Shown here one piece after another: positions 4,834 to 24,274 of a DNA stretch of 28,665 bases. The notes under the pieces are model-generated. The model had not been told where the DNA came from and did not search any database. It was given only the letters and a program-made list of their open reading frames with translations. The DNA lies in IMG/VR virus record IMGVR_UViG_2740892282_000008. One strand, given 5' to 3'. Both the position numbers and the translations under genes were made by a program. The DNA is from a virus (lineage: Duplodnaviria > Heunggongvirae > Uroviricota > Caudoviricetes). The first letter of the stretch is position 1. Each line of letters starts with the position of its first letter.

Positions 4834-6291
4834 TTAGGAGCGCCAAAAAAAACCTGAAAACAATATAATAACAGGATAAATTTCAAGGCGACCAAGAATC
4901 ATAGCTATGCACATTAAACATTTTGCAATGTCATTAAGCACTCCGAATGACGATGCAGTAGCCCCAAAACCTAATCCCATATTATTAATACATGCAGCCA
5001 CTGTTGCAAATGATGTAAGAAAATCATATCCCATACCATTTAACACCAGTATAAAAAACACCGTGAAGAGAGTATAAAGAAAAAAGAAACTCCATACAGA
5101 CCTCATTACACGATCTGTAACTATCTTCCCTCCTACATTTACACTCAACAACGCTCTGGGATGAGAAAGCTGATTTATCTCGTGTTTGCTTTGTTTGAAA
5201 AGTATAAGAAATCGAAGTGACTTAATTCCACCACAAGTTGAACCTATACATCCCCCAAAGAAACTTGACAACAGCAAAAACACTATCGTGTGCGTGGGCC
5301 AACTTGCATAATCCTGCGTAGCTAAACCATTATCAGTGAGCATGGAGCTGGCAAGAAAAAACGAATGAATAAAACTTCCATGCAAGTCATACATACCTAT
5401 ATGCCAGACCTGGAAAGAGGTAACAATGATCACCCCTAAGGCTATTAACAGAAAGAAACGAAGTTCAATATCTCTGATTAAAGGTTTTATCGTTTTCCTG
5501 CTAATAACAATATACCAAAGAGTGAAGTTGAAAGCCGATAGCAGGGAAAAAGAACCAGCCACCAGCTCAACCAAATAGTTATTAAAATATCCGATACTCT
5601 CGCTATGAGTTGAGAAACCACCAAGCGAAACTGTGGAAATCCCGTGACAAATAGCATCAAACAAAGGCATTCCTGCAAGTCTATAACAGACAATACAAGC
5701 AATACCTAATAAAGAATAAGTTATCCACAGTGTCCGTGACGTATCGGCCAGGCGGGGAGTGAGTTTGTCATCCTTAAATGGCCCCGGCATTTCTGACTGA
5801 TAAAGCTTTGCACCACCAATACCCAATAATGGCAATACAGCAACCGCCAGAACAATAACTCCTAAACCACCTATAAAATTTAACTGTGACCGATAGTACA
5901 AATATGCCCGAGGTAATGAACTAACATCATCAATTACAGTTGCTCCTGTTGTTGTTATTCCAGAAACCCCTTCAAACAGAGCATCAATGAACGTTAAATT
6001 AAGTTCTGAGTCAATCCATAAAGGGAATGCACTAATAACAGAAAACAAAATCCAAAACATTACAATTATAATAAACCCATCACGGGTACGTAATTGAATG
6101 CCAGATTTCTTAGTTGTATACCACGCTCCGCCACCAATGCAAAAAAATATAACGAAAGTTATAAAGAAAACGAACAGGCTTTTTTCTTTATAAAACAATG
6201 CTACAACCATTGGTGGCAACATTGAAAGACTATAGAGCCAAACCAGGAACCCACACATATGAGTAACAACTCTTACATGAGATGTATTCAT
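4834..6291 (-). CDS. trkG: Trk-system potassium uptake protein TrkG (485 aa)
   Basis: Polytopic membrane protein whose sequence from MNTSHVRVVTHMCGFLVWLYSLS matches my recollection of Rac TrkG; conspicuously AT-rich relative to its neighbours. Confidence 0.9.
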   Translation of the reverse strand: MNTSHVRVVTHMCGFLVWLYSLSMLPPMVVALFYKEKSLFVFFITFVIFFCIGGGAWYTTKKSGIQLRTRDGFIIIVMFWILFSVISAFPLWIDSELNLTFIDALFEGVSGITTTGATVIDDVSSLPRAYLYYRSQLNFIGGLGVIVLAVAVLPLLGIGGAKLYQSEMPGPFKDDKLTPRLADTSRTLWITYSLLGIACIVCYRLAGMPLFDAICHGISTVSLGGFSTHSESIGYFNNYLVELVAGSFSLLSAFNFTLWYIVISRKTIKPLIRDIELRFFLLIALGVIIVTSFQVWHIGMYDLHGSFIHSFFLASSMLTDNGLATQDYASWPTHTIVFLLLSSFFGGCIGSTCGGIKSLRFLILFKQSKHEINQLSHPRALLSVNVGGKIVTDRVMRSVWSFFFLYTLFTVFFILVLNGMGYDFLTSFATVAACINNMGLGFGATASSFGVLNDIAKCLMCIAMILGRLEIYPVIILFSGFFWRS

Positions 6292-8828: not shown

Positions 8829-9762
8829 TTTTCCTCACATATGTCATATAGTAAAGGATTATATATACCGTTGTTTTGGACGCTCAAACAGCGAATCAGA
8901 TCAAATAAAACGCACATTTGTTAACATTTACACAAAGTCTGCGTGGGATATTCTGAAAGAATATCCATAATGTGGAGAGAATCTATTGAAGTGCATGGTG
9001 CCGGGTGCCTCCCGGTGAACAAAATGTTCGTGATACCTGTCGGCGACAGAAAAGGTTAATGGTATCACCCCACCGCACAGGGGGATTCACCATGCAGGAG
9101 TTTTCTTAGCAAACTCACTGCGCGCCCGGCAACTCCCAACCACATAAAATGCGGAGTTTGTGGTATTTATGCATATAACTCGCAGGAATTATCTTAAAAA
9201 ACTGATGTCGATCCGGATTAAAAAGAAGCAGGTCATCATCAGATGACTGGAAAAAAGGAAAACAAAAAATACTCATCATACAGTTTTGATTGCAGGGATG
9301 AGCCTGCTATGCACAATATGCAGAATATAAGCAAGATAAAAATATGCAGGCATATTATTTCGGATTTTGTTATTAACACAACCTTTTTAATAATCATTTG
9401 GCATACAATAAACCAGCCCAAAAAGAACCGCCTAAACAGGCGGTTGGTCAATACAAAGGATGCTTCGTCTTTATTATAGTAATCTGAGGCGTCGGGTGTC
9501 TTGTATCAGACAACATATTGTCCCGCTAAACAGCGAATTACAAACCACCCTGCAATGATCTCTCATCTCATTTTATATGAGTTGACGACATCAGGATAAC
9601 GCATCATCAGCCCCTGCCAAGAAATATCAAAACTCCCGCCAGCAATGTGTTATCACAATATTGTAAAAAAAACACAGCACCGAAACTATAACTGGTCTCT
9701 GTTATAATTTGGAGCAGAAAGACCAGTTGCCCAACTAGCAGCATTCTCCCCTGCTTTCCTGA

Positions 9763-11769: not shown

Positions 11770-11925
11770 TTACTCCTCAGGTTCGTAAGCTGTGAAGACA
11801 GCGACCTCCGTCTGACCGGTTCGGATTCGCACCTCGCAGAGGTCTTTCCTCGTTACCAGTGCCGTCACTATGACGGTTAAACAGATGACAATCAGTGCGA
11901 CTAACATCGCCTTTTGCTGCTTCAT
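11770..11925 (-). CDS. hok: Hok-family type I toxin (51 aa); in-frame mok-like extension to 11982
   Basis: MKQQKAMLVALIVICLTVIVTALVTRKDLCEVRIRTGQTEVAVFTAYEPEE is near-identical to my recollection of HokD; AAGGAG RBS; upstream in-frame ATG at 11982 gives a 70-aa mok-like ORF; 9-bp hairpin ggcgaggga/tccctcgcc just 3' of the stop. Confidence 0.85.
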   Translation of the reverse strand: MKQQKAMLVALIVICLTVIVTALVTRKDLCEVRIRTGQTEVAVFTAYEPEE

Positions 11926-12136
11926 AGCCTGCTTCTCCTTGCCTTCCGGCGCGTAAGAGGCTAACCTACATGTGCAAAGCATGAAATTGGCCTCAGATTA
12001 ATGTTAAGCGTCTTGCCGGACGCGTAATGTTATCTGGGGCTTTTCTCTATCTGCCTTTGGTGTTCATGCCTGAGGCAGATAGCCTCAAGCACCCGCAGCA
12101 ATTCTACTTAACTCCCGTCACCTCGCCAATATAAAA

Positions 12137-12226
12137 TCAATCAGAAAGGCGATCCATAAGAACAACAGCAAGACAATAAATTGCCATTACAGCCGCAATA
12201 GCTAGCGCACATTTGAGAACCAGCAC
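12137..12226 (-). CDS. Candidate small membrane peptide (29 aa, GTG start)
   Basis: GTG preceded by AGGAGG at 5 nt; encodes VLVLKCALAIAAVMAIYCLAVVLMDRLSD, a single hydrophobic helix. It overlaps the 74-aa six-frame ORF at 12141-12365 in a different frame. Confidence 0.25.
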   Translation of the reverse strand: MLVLKCALAIAAVMAIYCLAVVLMDRLSD

Positions 12227-12645: not shown

Positions 12646-13845
12646 ATGCCATTTGTTATTTATGTGTTTACTATCAGTGCCTTTGCGCTCGGACTCGCGG
12701 AATTTGTCCCCATTGGGCTGACAGACGTTATGGCTCAGGGGTTGTGTGTGGGTGTGGAGCAGACCGGGGCAGCGGTTACAACCTATGCACTGGGGGCAAC
12801 GTTCGCGGCACCCGTACTGTCTGCGCTGACAGCAAGCTGGAGCCGGAAAAATGTAATGCTTACAACTGCCGTTGTGTTTACTGCCGGTAGTCTGGCGGCC
12901 GCGTTTGCAGCCACATTACCTCAGCTCCTGTTAGCGCGGTTCATTGCTGGTCTGGGACACGGCCTGTTTCTGGCTGCGGCATCCAGTACCGCAGCTCGTC
13001 TTGCTGGACCGGGTAAAGCAGGCAGAGCGGTGGCTGTGGTATTTGGTGGCTTTACTCTGGCGATGGCAATCGGCGTACCGCTGAGTACATGGTTGGGGGG
13101 GGGGGTCTCATGGCGTCCAGTTCTCGGCGCTATTGCCGCTTTTGGCGCGTTCGGATTCCTTGGACTGTTGTTCGGTATGAAAGATCCCGTACGCAGCGTG
13201 CCCGGTGAACATAGTGACTCAGCAATGCAGAATATCGGCATGCTGTTTAACCGTAAGTTGCTGGCCGGCGCGCTGGTTACGGTGCTGGCGTATGCAGGCT
13301 CGTTTACGGATTACACCTTTATCGCACCTATTCTGACGCAGGTGACAGGGGTTACCGGAGCAACGGTGAGTCTGTTTATGCTGGTTTACGGTATTACAGC
13401 TGCGGTAGGTAATATTCTTGGTGGGAAACTTACCGACAGCATGGGGGTTAATCGTGCCAATATACTCATCATTAGCGGCATTGTTGTTGTCGTGCTTGGT
13501 ATGTGGCTGCTGTCATCCTCACCGGTGAGCATGGGCATTCTGGTTGCGCTGCTGGGTATGGTGACATTTGCCGCAGTGCCGGCACTGCAGGCCCGTCTGA
13601 TTGGTGTCGCTGAGCAACATGCTCCTCATGCGCATGGTGTTGCTGCCGGCCTGAATATTGCGGGCTTCAACTCAGGTATAGCGCTGGGATCAGTACTGGG
13701 CAGCATTACTATAAGCCACGCCGGTATCGTGTATACCGGTATCAGCGGTGCGATTGTTTCTCTGCTCGGCCTGCTGTTGCTGCTTGCACAAATCCGTCGC
13801 AGCCACAGTCGTAAATTTCAACAGGTTAAAATCGTAGGCCAGTAA
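12646..13845 (+). CDS. MFS transporter (399 aa)
   Basis: About 12 predicted transmembrane helices, Gly/Ala-rich major-facilitator-like sequence; AGGAG RBS; GC-rich relative to phage DNA; contains an 11-G tract. Confidence 0.85.
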   Translation: MPFVIYVFTISAFALGLAEFVPIGLTDVMAQGLCVGVEQTGAAVTTYALGATFAAPVLSALTASWSRKNVMLTTAVVFTAGSLAAAFAATLPQLLLARFIAGLGHGLFLAAASSTAARLAGPGKAGRAVAVVFGGFTLAMAIGVPLSTWLGGGVSWRPVLGAIAAFGAFGFLGLLFGMKDPVRSVPGEHSDSAMQNIGMLFNRKLLAGALVTVLAYAGSFTDYTFIAPILTQVTGVTGATVSLFMLVYGITAAVGNILGGKLTDSMGVNRANILIISGIVVVVLGMWLLSSSPVSMGILVALLGMVTFAAVPALQARLIGVAEQHAPHAHGVAAGLNIAGFNSGIALGSVLGSITISHAGIVYTGISGAIVSLLGLLLLLAQIRRSHSRKFQQVKIVGQ

Positions 13846-13856
13846 AGGGAGGTTAT

Positions 13857-14549
13857 ATGCTTACCCGTGAAAATATGCTTAATGGCACATTTGTCAGGGT
13901 GCATGAAGCGCTGCTCCCGGCGAATATGCTCTGGGACGCTGAAAAAATACGCGCATCAATGAACTCTACTCTGGAGGAGCGCCCGACGGGTGCTCCTGTC
14001 TGGATATTTGCCTACGGGTCATTGATGTGGAATCCCGTGCTGGCGATTGAAGAAATGCAACGGGCCCGTCTGAAAGGATGGCAGCGCAGTTTCTGCATTC
14101 GTTTGATATCCGGACGAGCGACTCCTGATGTCCCCGGCAGGATGTTATCGCTCGACGAAGGTGGAATTACCGAAGGTATTGCGTTCAGACTGCCGGAATC
14201 GACTCTTATTAATGAGCTGGAAATTGTCTGGACGCGCGAGATGATAACCGGTCTTTACCGTCCGGTCTGGGCAGACGTTTCGCTAGGAAACGGTGAGGAA
14301 ATTCAGGCGCTGGCTTTCGTATCAGACAGACTGCATCCGCATTATGAACAGGACAATCTTACAGCGACCGTAGCGTTGAGCATCGCATCTGCCCGTGGAG
14401 ACATTGGCACGAATGCAGATTATGTATGGAAACTGCAGGCCACTCTGGGTGCGTTGGGAATACGGGATGATTACGTGAGTGAACTGGCCCTTGCTCTGCA
14501 TGAGGCTCCCTGTAACGATAAACTTCATCAGCGAGGCGCTTCACTATGA
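13857..14549 (+). CDS. ChaC-family gamma-glutamylcyclotransferase-like protein (230 aa)
   Basis: VWIFAYGSLMWNP and GRMLSLDEGG motifs resemble E. coli ChaC; GGGAGG RBS. Confidence 0.75.
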   Translation: MLTRENMLNGTFVRVHEALLPANMLWDAEKIRASMNSTLEERPTGAPVWIFAYGSLMWNPVLAIEEMQRARLKGWQRSFCIRLISGRATPDVPGRMLSLDEGGITEGIAFRLPESTLINELEIVWTREMITGLYRPVWADVSLGNGEEIQALAFVSDRLHPHYEQDNLTATVALSIASARGDIGTNADYVWKLQATLGALGIRDDYVSELALALHEAPCNDKLHQRGASL

Positions 14550-15427
14550 GCCATCTGAGCCATCTGCGAACGTTTCTTGAGGCCTATCGCTCTGGCTCCT
14601 TTTCAAAGGCGGCAGAACTACTGGGCATCACTCAGCCCGCGGCGTCACAGCATATCCAGTCTCTTGAGACTCTGGTTGGTAAGCGTCTGTTTATCAGGCA
14701 GGCCAGAGGCGTGACGGCAACCGAAGCTGCGGATGAGCTTGCCCGCTCAGTTTCACCCTTCATTGATGGTCTGGAAGAAAAGCTGTCCTCTTTCCGGTCA
14801 GGCTCTGTACGCGGGGGAACAATTAATCTGGCAGGACCGCCAGATTTTATTCATTCCCGGCTTGGGACAGTAATGGCTCCACTAATGAAGGAGGGGTATC
14901 GCCTACGCTTTCATACCGGCAATAAGCAACGTATTTATTCCCTTTTGCATGACGGGAGCGCCGATCTCGCTGTTACCGCATCTATGCCTGATGACCGTCT
15001 GTACGGCTATGCACATCTACTGACTGAACGCATGCTCCTTGTTCATGCTCCCGCCATGTCAGAGATCATCGGATCAGAACCTGGTGCTGAAACGCTTGCC
15101 TCATTACCGCTGATTGCTTATGACGAAGAGTTGCCACTGATTAGAGCGCTCTGGGCCTCCATGTTTCAGAGAGCCCCTGAGATGCAGGCTACATTCACCA
15201 TTCCGGATTTACGTATTATCCGCGACTTGGTCTGTGACGGCCACGGGTGGACAGTGCTGCCGGATTATCACTGTGACAATGACCTGAAAAGTGGTCGCCT
15301 GATTTCAGTGACACCTGCAGACCTCGCTCCGACTAATCATCTTTATCTGGTCTGGAACAAAAGGACGGCTAATAACAGCCGAACCGCCTATGTTCGGGAT
15401 TACATTCTTAAAACGTTTCCGCGTTGA
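14546..15427 (+). CDS. LysR-type transcriptional regulator (293 aa)
   Basis: N-terminal LysR HTH (LRTFLEAYRSGSFSKAAELLGITQPAASQHIQSLE) and C-terminal substrate-binding-like domain; ATGA overlap with the ChaC-like gene. Confidence 0.85.
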   Translation: MSHLSHLRTFLEAYRSGSFSKAAELLGITQPAASQHIQSLETLVGKRLFIRQARGVTATEAADELARSVSPFIDGLEEKLSSFRSGSVRGGTINLAGPPDFIHSRLGTVMAPLMKEGYRLRFHTGNKQRIYSLLHDGSADLAVTASMPDDRLYGYAHLLTERMLLVHAPAMSEIIGSEPGAETLASLPLIAYDEELPLIRALWASMFQRAPEMQATFTIPDLRIIRDLVCDGHGWTVLPDYHCDNDLKSGRLISVTPADLAPTNHLYLVWNKRTANNSRTAYVRDYILKTFPR

Positions 15428-15495: not shown

Positions 15496-15557
15496 GCCCA
15501 CTCTCACGCGAATGCTTTGCCCTTGACTTGCCAACAACCGTATCGCTTGCTCCGCAA

Positions 15558-16835
15558 CTATGGTTTTTTATTAGAATCTTCGCCACTAAATAAATTATAA
15601 TAAATTGATTTTATTAGATATCTGTCAGAATCTATATGGTCAGCACGAGTAGCATGCTCTAATGTTTCAAATGCTAGGGTTTGTGCGGCTTCAGCAAAAA
15701 TTCCAGGCCAACCCTTACTCAGCATCGACAGTCCTTTAAGTACCCTTATCTGAATTTCCCTCATACTGGCACCATCGCGCGCAACAGGTGAGAAAAAGTC
15801 TTCAAGTAGATCGTTATTCTGAAGTGGTGCAACATGTACAGAAGGATATTTCACTTCTATTTCATCAGATTTATTCTGCGCGTAAGCGGAAAGTATACGT
15901 ACACCTCTGCCAATGACATCAATGGCGGTTCCAGGATCGTTCACTGCGGGGGAAAGGGCTCGGCAGGCTATTTCGGCCATGACGCTAAGACAAAATCGGG
16001 GGTCCTGAGCAAATGAACGTACATCCGAGACAATAATCGTCTCAAGTAAATCGGTGCTGATTGATGACTCCTGGCCCTGACTCAGGTACAAAACTGGCGT
16101 GGACGGATGTATGAAACTGCCCGGCTGCGCCACGAGGTATACATGACGGGGATCATTGGTCAGCAGCTTGCTGAGTTTCACCATATCAACATATTCAACA
16201 TAGCCAATCTTTTTCGGATAAACTGCAACCGTTCCTTTCGGCTGTTCATTGTTCTCAAGCCATGGATATCCGCCGAGACAGGGATTTCTTGCTCTCGCAA
16301 TAAATGTTTCGATGGCCGCCTGTTCTACTTTTGCCGTTGTCTCACCAACCCTCCCCAGAGAGGTCAAATGCTGTATCCAGCGAAGCAATGTGATGAGGAT
16401 TAAGGCAATGACAACCAGTGTTACAATGAATAAAATGACTCTCCCCCTTTCTCCATAAGCTCCCATATTGAGGGCAATAATCCCTACCAGACTGAAGAGA
16501 AAAGAACCGATGAAGGTGGCCAGTACATTTTGTGTGGTGACGTCTTCAACAACTAAACGAGTAGCTCTGGGAGTCACATTAGTAGTGGCTGAACCGTAGG
16601 CTGTGACCATGATGCTCAGCGAAAATGTGGTCACTGCCAGCATACTCGATGCCAGTATGTTCAGAATGTTATCGACTGCTTCCGCACCAACCTTCACGGA
16701 AACCGACTCAGGTATCATTGATTTAAAAAGAATTGATAAAAGGGCCGTTATTATTGCGACAATTGCGAATAACGTTGCCCTGAACCATAGTTTTTTAAAT
16801 GTCTGCTTCAGCATCCATTTCCAGCGTGAAATCAT
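15558..16835 (-). CDS. Membrane protein of unknown function (about 425 aa; resembles DUF2254-type predicted membrane proteins)
   Basis: Several N-terminal transmembrane helices and a large soluble C-terminal domain; start chosen at the second ATG (16835), which has a GAGGGA RBS; the maximal ORF extends to 16850. Family assignment is from memory and tentative. Confidence 0.55.
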   Translation of the reverse strand: MISRWKWMLKQTFKKLWFRATLFAIVAIITALLSILFKSMIPESVSVKVGAEAVDNILNILASSMLAVTTFSLSIMVTAYGSATTNVTPRATRLVVEDVTTQNVLATFIGSFLFSLVGIIALNMGAYGERGRVILFIVTLVVIALILITLLRWIQHLTSLGRVGETTAKVEQAAIETFIARARNPCLGGYPWLENNEQPKGTVAVYPKKIGYVEYVDMVKLSKLLTNDPRHVYLVAQPGSFIHPSTPVLYLSQGQESSISTDLLETIIVSDVRSFAQDPRFCLSVMAEIACRALSPAVNDPGTAIDVIGRGVRILSAYAQNKSDEIEVKYPSVHVAPLQNNDLLEDFFSPVARDGASMREIQIRVLKGLSMLSKGWPGIFAEAAQTLAFETLEHATRADHIDSDRYLIKSIYYNLFSGEDSNKKP

Positions 16836-16870
16836 TCTGCATTCCCTCATATTGCAGCCGGGATAAATAA

Positions 16871-16891
16871 ATGCCGCCTCTGTGGCGGCAT
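16871..16891 (-). terminator. Hairpin between the BCCT transporter and the membrane-protein gene; possible intrinsic terminator or attenuator
   Basis: 8-bp stem atgccgcc/ggcggcat with loop tctgt; on the minus strand it is followed by ttatttatcc. Confidence 0.4.
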
Positions 16892-16898
16892 GTTGCTG

Positions 16899-18902
16899 TT
16901 AACGAACCAGATGCAGGAAGTGCAGGTGTTTTTCGTACTGGTCCAGTATGTCATTAATCAGCTGTTCCTGATTCCAGCCCATTACATCATAATTTTGGCC
17001 GCCCTCTTTGAGATAGACTTCAGCGCGATAATATCGATGTTGTTCACTCTGCTGCTCATCATTATCCAGCGCAGCGAGCGCGAAGGTCGGTGAGTTATAC
17101 CCGCGAAGCCTCACTTCATATATATAATTCAGCTCGTTGCCCAAATCGACTTCAAGGCGAATACGATCCTCGGCGGCGTCACTGATGTGGCTTATCGTTC
17201 CCTGCTTGTTAAGTTCCTCCTGAACCAGCGTCATGGCGGGTTGGATAATGTCGTCCATAAAACGTTTCACAAGAGAGCGCTTCGGCAAATACGCGATATT
17301 GCGTAACCTTCTCTGCCAGGGAATTGGGTTACGTGCAGCCGTAGGAGCAATAGTCGCCATGCTAAGGCTTTCACGCTTGGTCAAATCCCGACGCAGGGCT
17401 TTTAACAGTCCGTATATGGATATTAATAAGATAACTGAGAAGGGCAATGCACTCGCTATCGTTACGGTTTGCAACGCACTCAGCCCCCCTGCGATCAGCA
17501 GGGCAATAGCAACAACGCCCATGAGCGATGCCCAGAAAATTCGCTGCCAGACGGGCGTGTTTGCCACCCCACCTGATGCCAGAGTATCCACAACCATTGC
17601 CCCCGAATCAGCAGACGTTACAAAGAAGACGATGACCATCGCCATTGCAATGAATGACAGCACGGAAGAGAACGGGAAATGCTCCAGGAAATTAAACAGG
17701 GCAAGCGCAACATCCTGCTGAACGGTATTGGCGAGGTCAGTGGCGCCCTGGTTCATGATGAGATAGATGGCGCTGTTTCCAAACACCGTCATCCACATGA
17801 GCGTAAAGCCGGCGGGAACAAACAACACGCCAGTCACGAACTCACGAATTGTCCTGCCGCGGGAAACGCGTGCAATGAACATACCTACAAACGGCGACCA
17901 TGAAAGCCACCATCCCCAGTATAATAATGTCCAGCCCCCCAGCCAGTTGCTCGACTTGGGTTCATACGCGTAAAGGTTGAACGTTTTACTCACCAGTTCC
18001 GACAGATAACCACCCGTATTTTCCACAAATGACTTCAGCAGAAGCACAGTGGGACCCAGGCACAAGACCAGCGCCAGGAGCAACACCGCCAGGCCCAGAT
18101 TAAGCTCAGACAGGATGCGTATTCCCTTGTCCAGGCCGGACACCACCGAAATCGTCGCTAACCCCGTGATGACCACGATCAAAATGACCTGTACCGTTTC
18201 ATTGATGGGCACGCCGAAAAGATGGTTCAAACCGGCATTCACCTGCAATACACCGTAACCCAGCGATGTTGCAACGCCAAAGACAGTGCCTATCACGGCG
18301 AAGATATCAACCGCGTGGCCTATAGGCCCGTAAATGCGATCGCCGATAATGGGATAGAGCGCAGAACGCAGCGTTAAAGGCAGACCGTGACGGTAACTGA
18401 AAAAGGCCAGAATCAGCGCCACGATGGCATAAATTGCCCATGCGTGCAGACCCCAGTGGAAGAACGTCAGGCGCATGGCTTCCTTCGCTGCCGCAACGGT
18501 CTCTGGAGTGCCGACAGGTGGCGAAAGATAATGCATCACAGGTTCGGCAACGCCAAAGAACATCAGGCCGATCCCCATCCCTGCCGAAAAAAGCATCGCG
18601 AACCAGGAGTGGTAGCTGAAATCAGGCTGCGCATGGTCTGGGCCCAGCTTTATATCACCGTAACGTGAGAGTCCAAGGAACGTGACGCTCAGTAAAATCA
18701 GGGCCACAGCAAGTATGTAGAACCAGCTGGCATTCGTGAAGATTTGTTGCTGAAGTAGTTTAAAATTTTTGTCGGCGACATCCGGGAATACGGCGGCAAA
18801 GGCGACAAGAAGGAAAATTAGCAAAGCAGATGTAAAGAATACCGCTTTGTTAATCTGGCTTGTAGACTTCTTTGGGGTTGTATCATTTTCACTCATAATC
18901 AT
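16899..18902 (-). CDS. BCCT-family transporter, BetT-like (667 aa)
   Basis: Collinear similarity to my recollection of E. coli BetT, including LSELN, WTLLYWGWWLSWSPFVGMFIARVSRGRTIREF and the cytoplasmic C-terminal extension ending DILDQYEKHLHFLHL. Confidence 0.9.
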   Translation of the reverse strand: MIMSENDTTPKKSTSQINKAVFFTSALLIFLLVAFAAVFPDVADKNFKLLQQQIFTNASWFYILAVALILLSVTFLGLSRYGDIKLGPDHAQPDFSYHSWFAMLFSAGMGIGLMFFGVAEPVMHYLSPPVGTPETVAAAKEAMRLTFFHWGLHAWAIYAIVALILAFFSYRHGLPLTLRSALYPIIGDRIYGPIGHAVDIFAVIGTVFGVATSLGYGVLQVNAGLNHLFGVPINETVQVILIVVITGLATISVVSGLDKGIRILSELNLGLAVLLLALVLCLGPTVLLLKSFVENTGGYLSELVSKTFNLYAYEPKSSNWLGGWTLLYWGWWLSWSPFVGMFIARVSRGRTIREFVTGVLFVPAGFTLMWMTVFGNSAIYLIMNQGATDLANTVQQDVALALFNFLEHFPFSSVLSFIAMAMVIVFFVTSADSGAMVVDTLASGGVANTPVWQRIFWASLMGVVAIALLIAGGLSALQTVTIASALPFSVILLISIYGLLKALRRDLTKRESLSMATIAPTAARNPIPWQRRLRNIAYLPKRSLVKRFMDDIIQPAMTLVQEELNKQGTISHISDAAEDRIRLEVDLGNELNYIYEVRLRGYNSPTFALAALDNDEQQSEQHRYYRAEVYLKEGGQNYDVMGWNQEQLINDILDQYEKHLHFLHLVR

Positions 18903-23998: not shown

Positions 23999-24274
23999 AT
24001 GATTACCAATTATGAAGCCACTGTTGTAACTACCGATGACATTGTTCACGAGGTGAATCTGGAAGGAAAGCGCATTGGCTACGTAATTAAAACAGAAAAT
24101 AAAGAAACCCCATTCACTGTGGTTGATATCGATGGTCCATCAGGCAACGTAAAAACACTTGATGAAGGTGTCAAAAAAATGTGCCTGGTGCATATCGGAA
24201 AGAATCTGCCCGCAGAAAAAAAAGCCGAATTTCTGGCAACTCTAATTGCAATGAAATTAAAAGGTGAAATCTGA
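23999..24274 (+). CDS. racC: RacC (91 aa)
   Basis: ATG with AGGAG RBS; MITNYEATVVTTDDIVHEVNLEGKRIGYVIKTENKETPF... matches my recollection of Rac RacC. Confidence 0.8.
   Translation: MITNYEATVVTTDDIVHEVNLEGKRIGYVIKTENKETPFTVVDIDGPSGNVKTLDEGVKKMCLVHIGKNLPAEKKAEFLATLIAMKLKGEI

What the first reader, a model, noticed from the sequence alone, without database searches (positions are those of the whole stretch)
13095..13105. 11-nt poly-G tract inside the MFS transporter coding sequence
A run of 11 consecutive G residues (read as Leu-Gly-Gly-Gly-Val in the current frame) lies in the middle of the MFS gene. Homopolymers of this length are rare in enterobacterial coding DNA and are prone to slipped-strand mispairing. 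A +/-1 change would truncate the transporter, so this could act as a phase-variable ON/OFF switch, or it could be an assembly or sequencing error in a difficult homopolymer.
Basis: seen in the sequence. Interest (0 to 1): 0.5.

Follow-up and report, generated by a model that had tools for sequence, protein, structure and literature searches.

The report
Slippery poly-G run in transporter gene
The 11-G run is real: it is a rare variant of an 8-G run in an accessory E. coli prophage transporter gene, and the run often gains or loses a G in nature and so breaks the gene, which looks like an ordinary mutational hotspot rather than a proven evolved on/off switch.

Summary
The G11 run at 13095-13105 is real and in frame (TTG GGG GGG GGG GTC, codons 150-154 of a 399-aa MFS transporter) in a cargo island of a Rac-like prophage. 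It is not the usual allele. Of 305 complete E. coli records with the site, 262 read G8-T-GG (Leu-Gly-Gly-Val-Val) and 7 read G11, which differs by T13103G (Val153Gly). Orthologues in other genera encode the motif with mixed codons and no run. Length variants exist: G9TGG 10, G7TGG 13, G10 2, G10TGG 1, G12 0. A control C8 run in tRNA gene leuT reads C7 in 3.7% and C9 in 0.33% of 5430 records. The -1 class is therefore no commoner than assembly error; the +1 class is 10-fold enriched (p=9e-7). G9TGG sits on at least 6 SNP haplotypes, at least four with near-identical G8TGG relatives, so +1 slippage is recurrent. Predicted truncated products occur on 3 to 842 contigs each. Best reading: a slipped-strand indel hotspot, made longer by a run-adjacent substitution, that repeatedly inactivates a dispensable gene. 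Switching within a clone and any selected function remain untested.

The parts
13095..13105 (+). G11 homopolymer (codons L150 third base to V154 first base). The common allele here is G8-T-GG.
   Evidence: Allele census.
13103..13103 (+). Derived base: T in 262/305 complete E. coli records, G in the window (GTG Val153 -> GGG Gly153). This change fuses the G8 and GG runs into G11.
   Evidence: Val or another aliphatic residue (or Thr) occupies this position in all 48 orthologues from other species.
12646..13845 (+). 399-aa DHA1-type MFS transporter gene of unknown substrate. The tract encodes the end of hydrophobic segment 125-150 and the short loop before segment 157-179.
   Evidence: (best NCBIfam model Cmx/CmrA, 206 bits, below the 400-bit cutoff).
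13857..14549 (+). ChaC-like gamma-glutamylcyclotransferase gene, 11 nt downstream of the MFS gene on the same strand (same cargo island).
14546..15427 (+). LysR-family regulator gene, overlapping the ChaC-like gene by 4 nt (same cargo island).
15558..18902 (-). DUF2254 protein gene and BetT-like BCCT transporter gene: the rest of the cargo island, between the prophage replication and Nin/antiterminator modules.
   Evidence: BetT subfamily, 752 bits against a 695-bit cutoff.

Best explanation
The tract is a slipped-strand-mispairing hotspot in an accessory, probably dispensable, prophage cargo gene. It is not demonstrably an evolved switch. History (inferred): synonymous changes turned CTG GGN GGC GTG, the form kept in Enterobacter, Pantoea and Klebsiella, into TTG GGG GGG GTG in the E. 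coli copy, creating a G8 run. In a minority of lineages, including this window, the interrupting T became G. This is the kind of run-adjacent substitution that transient misalignment is expected to produce, and it gave G11 and a Val153Gly change in a loop between two membrane segments. Mechanism (shown at population level): the run gains or loses single G residues during replication. +1 gives a 187-aa and -1 a 177-aa truncated protein lacking roughly the C-terminal half of the transporter. +1 events have happened repeatedly on different haplotypes, and further steps (G10TGG, G13) and a frame-restoring allele (G9-T-G) also occur. Prediction (inferred from measured poly-G behaviour elsewhere): G11 should be several-fold more unstable than G8 and should mostly lose rather than gain G. 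The result is ON/OFF polymorphism of the transporter among strains, most simply a by-product of mutation bias on a gene under weak selection.
For: - Allele census in 305 complete E. coli records: G8TGG 262, G11 7, G9TGG 10, G7TGG 13, G10 2, G12 0, G10TGG 1.
- Control C8 run in leuT across 5430 records: C7 3.7%, C9 0.33%. The +1 class at the tract is enriched 10-fold (Fisher p=8.7e-7); the -1 class is not (p=0.35).
- G9TGG lies on at least 6 SNP haplotypes, at least four with identical or near-identical G8TGG relatives. One haplotype carries G8TGG, G9TGG, G9TG and G11. G10TGG shares a haplotype with G9TGG.
- Exact predicted frameshift products are on record: 842 contigs (G9TGG/G12), 164 (G7TGG), 53 (G6TGG/G9), 42 (G10TGG), 24 (G10), 3 (G13). 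Intact LGGGV proteins are on 113+84+18 contigs.
- IMG/VR plus metagenome contigs: 23 G8TGG, 2 G9TGG, 1 G7TGG.
- The tract is the only recurrent indel site in the island's coding DNA.
- Orthologues at 83-93% nucleotide identity have no run.
- Literature: E. coli indel rate rises exponentially with run length (PMC8510543). Base pairs next to runs are substitution hotspots, up to 18.5-fold at length 8, consistent with transient misalignment (bioRxiv 10.1101/346874). In C. jejuni reporters G8 mutates mainly by insertion, G11 mainly by deletion, and G11 is 10-fold more mutable (PMC3401435). That matches the G9TGG excess here and G10 without G12.
Against: - No read-level or within-clone data, so the actual switching rate in mismatch-repair-proficient E. 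coli is unknown.
- The -1 variants, and possibly the two G10 records, cannot be separated from long-read assembly error. One G10 genome has several other frameshifts.
- The sequencing platforms behind the contig counts are unknown, and the count for the common allele is capped at 1000, so frequencies in the large collection are not calibrated.
- Recurrence of G11 on 5-6 haplotypes could partly reflect recombination or systematic base-calling error at G8-T-GG rather than repeated mutation.
- The frame-restoring G9-T-G allele hints at selection to regain function, which a purely neutral-decay view does not predict.
Confidence: 0.7

Rival explanations
1. A genuine, selected contingency locus. [quoted passage not shown] G11 would be a faster-switching allele.
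For: ON and OFF lengths coexist on the same SNP haplotype, with multi-step variants and a second-site frame-restoring allele, G9-T-G, which encodes the same protein as G11. The +1 alleles are recurrent. Three synonymous differences cluster in the 9 nt that create the run, relative to the 93%-identical Klebsiella plasmid copy (P about 0.02, post hoc). A non-surface metabolic gene can be phase-variable through a short homopolymer, as in M. tuberculosis glpK 7C (bioRxiv 10.1101/717272).
Against: The tract is absent from all orthologues in other genera. E. coli as a species avoids SSRs in coding regions (PMC3315296) and has mismatch repair, so rates are expected to be well below those of classical poly-G loci. 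The gene is an inner-membrane transporter of unknown substrate, not a surface antigen or restriction-modification component. The clustering of synonymous changes is equally explained by run-extension mutation bias. One haplotype was sampled only in frameshifted form (G9TGG, G10TGG), which fits a long-lived OFF state.
Confidence: 0.17
2. The G11 in this window is a sequencing or assembly artefact of a true G8-T-GG (or other) sequence.
For: Homopolymers of this length are error-prone. 3.7% of 'complete' E. coli assemblies mis-read a C8 run in leuT. One partial protein begins exactly at the tract, so a contig broke inside G11. G11 appears on many different haplotypes, as an artefact would. From my own knowledge, not tested here: T-to-G miscalls after G runs are a recognised short-read error.
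Against: The identical allele is present in 7 complete RefSeq genomes from different laboratories and hosts. It is present in a complete genome that differs from the window by 3 mismatches in 11.2 kb (L098, CP057368.1). It is present in three records sharing one haplotype (S21, H14, WP8-S17). It is also found in groups of assemblies with the same gene neighbourhood (6 and 11 further similar places). LGGGV proteins are on 113+84+18 contigs. The window's reading frame is intact, whereas most homopolymer errors are indels.
Confidence: 0.08
3. The run acts at the RNA or translation level. Transcriptional slippage or ribosomal frameshifting on the G run would yield mixed products, or partly rescue frameshifted alleles, so the DNA length would not strictly decide ON/OFF.
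For: Only general knowledge, not tested here: long homopolymers can cause RNA-polymerase slippage in bacteria. Frameshifted alleles persist on a haplotype that has since acquired SNPs, which would be easier if they were leaky.
Against: From my own knowledge: documented slippage in enterobacteria is on A/T runs of about 9 or more, and efficient -1 ribosomal slippery sites need A/U-rich heptamers. Nothing in the sequence, such as a downstream stimulatory structure, was looked for or found. Annotation pipelines treat the variants as split or frameshifted genes.
Confidence: 0.03

Closest known systems
Poly-G/C contingency loci of Campylobacter jejuni and Neisseria meningitidis (for example cj1139 G8, capA G11)
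   Same: An intragenic G8-G11 run whose +/-1 slippage shifts the frame. The direction bias is also the same: G8 mostly gains a G, G11 mostly loses one (PMC3401435; compare).
   Different: From my own knowledge, those organisms carry many such tracts, C. jejuni lacks mismatch repair, and the genes are mostly surface or restriction-modification functions. Measured rates there are about 1e-4 to 4e-3 per division (PMC3401435). Here there is a single tract in a mismatch-repair-proficient species, in a transporter, absent from orthologues, with no measured rate.
Mycobacterium tuberculosis glpK 7C homopolymer frameshift switch
   Same: A short homopolymer inside a non-surface, metabolism or transport-type gene. 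Frameshift variants are found among natural isolates, and frame restoration occurs by further indels in or next to the tract (bioRxiv 10.1101/717272; compare the G9-T-G allele).
   Different: For glpK, reversibility, the phenotype (drug tolerance, small colonies) and in-host enrichment were shown experimentally. None of this is known for the E. coli MFS gene.
Mononucleotide-run mutational hotspots in E. coli mutation-accumulation experiments (Foster laboratory)
   Same: Same species and same two phenomena: indel rate rising exponentially with run length (PMC8510543), and base substitutions at the base next to a run that copy the run's base (bioRxiv 10.1101/346874). These fit the +/-1 variants and the T13103G change respectively.
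   Different: Those are laboratory spectra over runs of 10 nt or less. This is a natural-population example with a run of 11.
Pseudomonas aeruginosa mucA G5 hotspot
   Same: A coding G run whose -1 deletion recurrently inactivates the gene in natural populations (PMC2781719, abstract seen).
   Different: mucA loss has a known selected phenotype (mucoidy), the run is much shorter, and conversion is described as irreversible.

Membership tests
SSR-mediated phase-variable (contingency) locus | A repeat tract within the ORF or promoter whose unit gain or loss switches expression | tested here: met
   G11 (or G8) lies in codons 150-154. -1 gives a 177-aa and +1 a 187-aa truncated product.
SSR-mediated phase-variable (contingency) locus | Tract-length polymorphism, with both ON and OFF lengths, among closely related strains and above sequencing error | tested here: met
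   G9TGG is in 10/305 records against a 0.33% +1 baseline at the leuT C8 run (p=8.7e-7). Four tract states occur on one SNP haplotype. The -1 class is not above baseline.
SSR-mediated phase-variable (contingency) locus | High-frequency, reversible switching within a clonal population | not testable with these tools
   No reads or cultures are available. The only indirect hints are the G9-T-G frame-restoring allele and stepwise G9TGG to G10TGG on one haplotype.
SSR-mediated phase-variable (contingency) locus | The tract is maintained or conserved in orthologues or across the species beyond what codon choice would give | tested here: not met
   All 48 orthologues from other species, and a 93%-identical K. 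pneumoniae plasmid copy, encode the motif with mixed codons. None has a run longer than 5 in the gene in the four closest copies checked.
SSR-mediated phase-variable (contingency) locus | A gene product whose ON/OFF state is under fluctuating selection (typically surface, restriction-modification or host-interaction functions) | not tested
   The substrate is unknown. The best curated model is chloramphenicol-efflux Cmx/CmrA, at 206 bits against a 400-bit cutoff.
Major facilitator superfamily transporter (DHA1-like) | Match to Pfam MFS_1 above the gathering score over most of the protein | tested here: met
   PF07690, 144.2 bits against a 33.4-bit cutoff, residues 9-328.
Cmx/CmrA chloramphenicol efflux transporters (NCBIfam NF033135 equivalog) | Score at or above the curated equivalog cutoff | tested here: not met
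   205.8 bits against a 400-bit cutoff. This is a related fold and family only, with no functional assignment.
Homopolymer assembly artefact | The allele is not reproduced in independent assemblies or within clonal groups | tested here: not met
   G11 is in 7 complete RefSeq genomes, in CP057368.1 (3 mismatches in 11.2 kb against the window), and in groups of similar contigs.

The most novel reading that the evidence does not exclude
E. coli, a species generally held not to rely on simple-sequence contingency loci, carries in a Rac-like prophage cargo island a transporter gene that truly phase-varies through a G8/G11 run. In this reading G11 and G9-T-G are in-frame 'revertant' or faster-switching alleles, selected because turning the transporter off and on again pays under alternating conditions.
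Probability: 0.15. Interest if true: 0.6.

Novelty: new member of a known kind. Interest (0 to 1): 0.3.

Why it matters
If the tract only marks a mutational hotspot, the value is practical:

- It explains why this accessory transporter is annotated as intact, split or 'frameshifted' in different E. coli genomes.
- It is a natural example of two laboratory-defined mutation biases acting in sequence: run-adjacent substitution that lengthens a run, then length-dependent slippage.
- It shows that -1 homopolymer variants in 'complete' genomes need an error baseline before they are interpreted.

If the switch were shown to be fast, reversible and selected, it would be one of very few simple-repeat phase-variable genes in E. 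coli, and it would be carried by a prophage.

Tried and rejected
1. I first took all +/-1 variants in complete genomes (about 8.5%) as biological. The leuT C8 control showed that -1 calls occur at 3.7% by error alone, so only the +1 class is claimed as clearly real.
2. I first thought the marker 13310C was linked to G11, and used it to derive ZF8-1's G10 from G11. The larger haplotype table showed 13310C also on G8TGG alleles. The G10-from-G11 inference for ZF8-1 now rests on its full-haplotype identity with S21/H14/WP8-S17, and G10 could still be an error.
3. G12 was looked for and found in none of 305 records.
4. Deposited phage genomes hold no copy of the gene, so nothing can be said about the tract in packaged phage.
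5. The paper I sought under PMC3478608 (Lee et al. 2012, for absolute indel rates per run length) is not held. Only the qualitative statement from later papers of the same laboratory is cited.
6. About 10 of the 305 records matched none of the six allele-specific queries.
7. No structure prediction or remote-homology search was run. The question concerns DNA mutability, and the Pfam and NCBIfam assignments were sufficient.

Full report
**Observation.** The window carries 11 consecutive G at 13095-13105. They are read TGG TTG GGG GGG GGG GTC, residues W149-V154 of a 399-aa ORF at 12646-13845 on the + strand. That ORF is a major-facilitator transporter: Pfam MFS_1, 144 bits against a 33.4-bit cutoff. 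No other G or C run in the window exceeds 7. Base composition predicts about 0.005 G/C runs of 11 or more in a window this size. A mutation-accumulation study reports 216 runs of 8 nt, 19 of 9 nt and a single run of 10 nt in E. coli MG1655 (bioRxiv 10.1101/346874).

**Context.** The gene is the first of a cargo island: MFS transporter, ChaC-like gamma-glutamylcyclotransferase, LysR regulator, DUF2254 protein and BetT-like BCCT transporter. The island lies between the replication module and the DUF1367/DUF1364/DUF1133 late-regulation module of a Rac-like lambdoid prophage that also carries recET, kilR, sieB and trkG. The gene is accessory: 307 of 5426 complete E. coli genomes hold it, nearly all at 99% identity or more. 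No deposited phage genome holds it. A K. pneumoniae IncF plasmid carries the MFS-ChaC-LysR trio at 93% identity. The transporter's substrate is unknown; its best curated model, Cmx/CmrA chloramphenicol efflux, scores 206 bits against a 400-bit cutoff. The tract encodes the end of one hydrophobic segment and the short loop before the next.

**G11 is a rare, derived allele.** The window's single mismatch to the best E. coli hits lies in the tract itself. The common allele is TTG GGG GGG GTG GTC, that is G8-T-GG, encoding Leu-Gly-Gly-Val-Val. Allele-specific 90-92-nt queries gave the census below.

| Allele | Records (of 305) | Frame |
|---|---|---|
| G8TGG | 262 | in frame |
| G7TGG | 13 | -1 |
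| G9TGG | 10 | +1 |
| G11 | 7 | in frame |
| G10 | 2 | -1 |
| G10TGG | 1 | +2 |
| G12 | 0 | - |
| unresolved | about 10 | - |

In 48 orthologues from other species the residue at position 153 is Val or another aliphatic residue (or Thr), never Gly. The closest ones (Enterobacter, Pantoea, Klebsiella and the Klebsiella plasmid; 83-93% nucleotide identity) write the motif CTG GGT/GGA/GGC GGC/GGT GTA/GTG with no homopolymer. The G8 run is therefore specific to the E. coli/Shigella copy, and G11 arose from it by T13103G (Val153Gly).

**G11 is not an artefact of this window.**
- It occurs in seven complete genomes from different hosts and laboratories.
- It occurs in a complete genome, CP057368.1, that differs from the window by 3 mismatches in 11.2 kb.
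- Three records share one haplotype and all carry G11.
- Groups of contigs with the same gene neighbourhood carry it.
- The LGGGV protein in three haplotype forms is on record from 113, 84 and 18 contigs, against at least 1000 (the counting cap) for each Val153 form.
- One caveat: one of the six places shown for the window protein carries G9-T-G rather than G11 at the DNA level, so these counts are not purely G11.

The tRNA-Leu gene leuT contains a C8 run (pointed out in PMC8510543) that must be intact in living cells. With the same query design across 5430 records it reads C8 in 94.3%, C7 in 3.7% (including DH5alpha and many early long-read assemblies) and C9 in 0.33%.
- The G7TGG frequency (4.3%) cannot be distinguished from assembly error (p=0.35).
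- G9TGG (3.3%) is enriched 10-fold (p=8.7e-7).
- Independent collections agree that variants exist. Among IMG/VR and metagenome contigs, 23 carry G8TGG, 2 G9TGG and 1 G7TGG.
- The exact predicted truncated proteins are on record from 842 contigs (G9TGG or G12), 164 (G7TGG), 53 (G6TGG or G9), 42 (G10TGG), 24 (G10) and 3 (G13). The sequencing platforms behind these contigs are not known to me.
- Within the island's coding DNA the tract is the only recurrent indel site. Other indels are confined to one 1.5x-coverage contig, one 12-nt deletion and one error-prone genome.

**Recurrence.** A haplotype table over 6.6 kb of the island in 47 E. coli loci shows G9TGG on at least six SNP backgrounds. At least four of these have identical or near-identical G8TGG relatives. 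The G9TGG genomes also differ in flanking IS elements and prophage modules. One background (14295A/14812T) carries G8TGG, G9TGG, G11 and an in-frame G9-T-G allele, TTG GGG GGG GGT GTC, which encodes the same protein as G11. That allele is one step from G9TGG (loss of a G after the T) or one step from G11 (G to T). Another background was sampled only as G9TGG and G10TGG, so an OFF state has persisted there long enough to take a further step. G11 itself sits on five or six backgrounds. The likeliest cause is recurrent mutation, but recombination or occasional miscalling cannot be excluded.

**Mechanism.**
- Shown: length changes at the tract are recurrent in nature, and each one truncates the transporter at 177-187 aa.
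- Inferred from established knowledge: the changes arise by slipped-strand mispairing, whose rate in E. coli rises exponentially with run length (PMC8510543).
- The T-to-G change fits transient-misalignment ('dislocation') mutagenesis. Base pairs next to runs are substitution hotspots, up to 18.5-fold at length 8, and about half of such substitutions next to runs were consistent with being templated by the run (bioRxiv 10.1101/346874).
- The same bias can explain why three synonymous differences from the Klebsiella plasmid copy cluster in the 9 nt that make up the run (P about 0.02, post hoc).
- The direction of change parallels reporter measurements in C. jejuni. There G8 mutates mostly by insertion (11:1 to 24:1), G11 mostly by deletion (23:1 or 2:1), and G11 is 10-fold more mutable (PMC3401435). 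Here G9TGG is the dominant variant of G8TGG, and G10 but not G12 accompanies G11.

**Comparison with known systems.** The locus works like a poly-G contingency locus and like the M. tuberculosis glpK 7C switch (bioRxiv 10.1101/717272). Membership in that class is not established.
- Met: an intragenic tract, and ON/OFF polymorphism above error.
- Tested and not met: maintenance of the tract in orthologues.
- Untestable here: rapid reversible switching within a clone, and a selected phenotype.

E. coli as a species tends to avoid coding SSRs (PMC3315296), and it has mismatch repair (my own knowledge). I therefore file the locus as a mutational hotspot in a weakly selected accessory gene (confidence 0.7). 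A selected switch remains the main rival (0.17), followed by an artefact in this window (0.08) and RNA-level recoding (0.03).

**Verdict.** The novelty class is a new member of a known kind, and interest is modest at 0.3. The most useful by-products are the demonstration that the run grew by a run-adjacent substitution, the natural-population match to laboratory slippage biases, and the error baseline for homopolymers in 'complete' genomes.

Noticed in passing
L087 878-885 (NC_000913.3 leuT), searched across the E. coli genome collection: The C8 run in tRNA-Leu gene leuT reads C7 in 201 of 5430 'complete' RefSeq E. coli records (3.7%), including DH5alpha CP025520, and C9 in 18. This is a ready-made quality marker for homopolymer errors in finished assemblies.
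   Followed up: yes
L099 5001-6200 (GCA_025987905.1): The tract reads G9-T-G (TTG GGG GGG GGT GTC). It is in frame and encodes the same protein as G11. It is one step from the out-of-frame G9TGG allele or from G11, so it may be a second-site frame restoration. An IS3-family transposase gene lies just upstream of the MFS gene in this strain.
   Followed up: partly
window 11770-12150; compare L005, L006, L095: Upstream of the MFS gene, strains carry one of two alternative cassettes: a hokD-type type I toxin (as in the window) or a DUF1971/TehB-like gene. The sequence switches sharply near window position 12150.
   Followed up: no
L094 4001-6782 (K. pneumoniae plasmid NZ_LR890357.1): The MFS, gamma-glutamylcyclotransferase and LysR trio also sits on a conjugative IncFIB/IncFII Klebsiella plasmid at about 93% nucleotide identity, without the DUF2254 and BCCT genes annotated next to it. 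The three genes appear to move as a unit between replicon types.
   Followed up: partly
L060, L088-L091, L056: IS1, IS3 and ISEsa1 copies flank or interrupt the island in several strains. In Z1323CEC0013 the MFS gene and a truncated cyclotransferase gene lie between two IS3-family copies, with a second partial copy of the island nearby. In ECONIH5 the island abuts uspF and ompN through an IS1.
   Followed up: no
P0015 and P0013 (cluster members): P0015 is a partial protein that begins exactly at GGGVSW, so its contig ended inside a G11 tract. P0013 has LGGAV, a T-to-C change at the same interrupting base, which is a third variant at position 13103.
   Followed up: no
window 9665-9672 (A8); also 2395-2403 (T9), 4845-4852 (A8), 24216-24223 (A8): These are other long A/T runs in the prophage. 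The A8 at 9665 shows a 1-nt deletion in two of the seven loci that cover it (L004, L067). The others were covered by too few loci to judge.
   Followed up: no
L084, at window-equivalent 13684-13695: One metagenome contig has a 12-nt in-frame deletion in the C-terminal half of the MFS gene.
   Followed up: no
L017 (Shigella flexneri SFBU0723, CP182557.1): The Shigella flexneri genome returned by the GTDB species-representative scan carries the gene with G7TGG (out of frame). It diverges sharply from the E. coli island downstream of about window position 15500.
   Followed up: no
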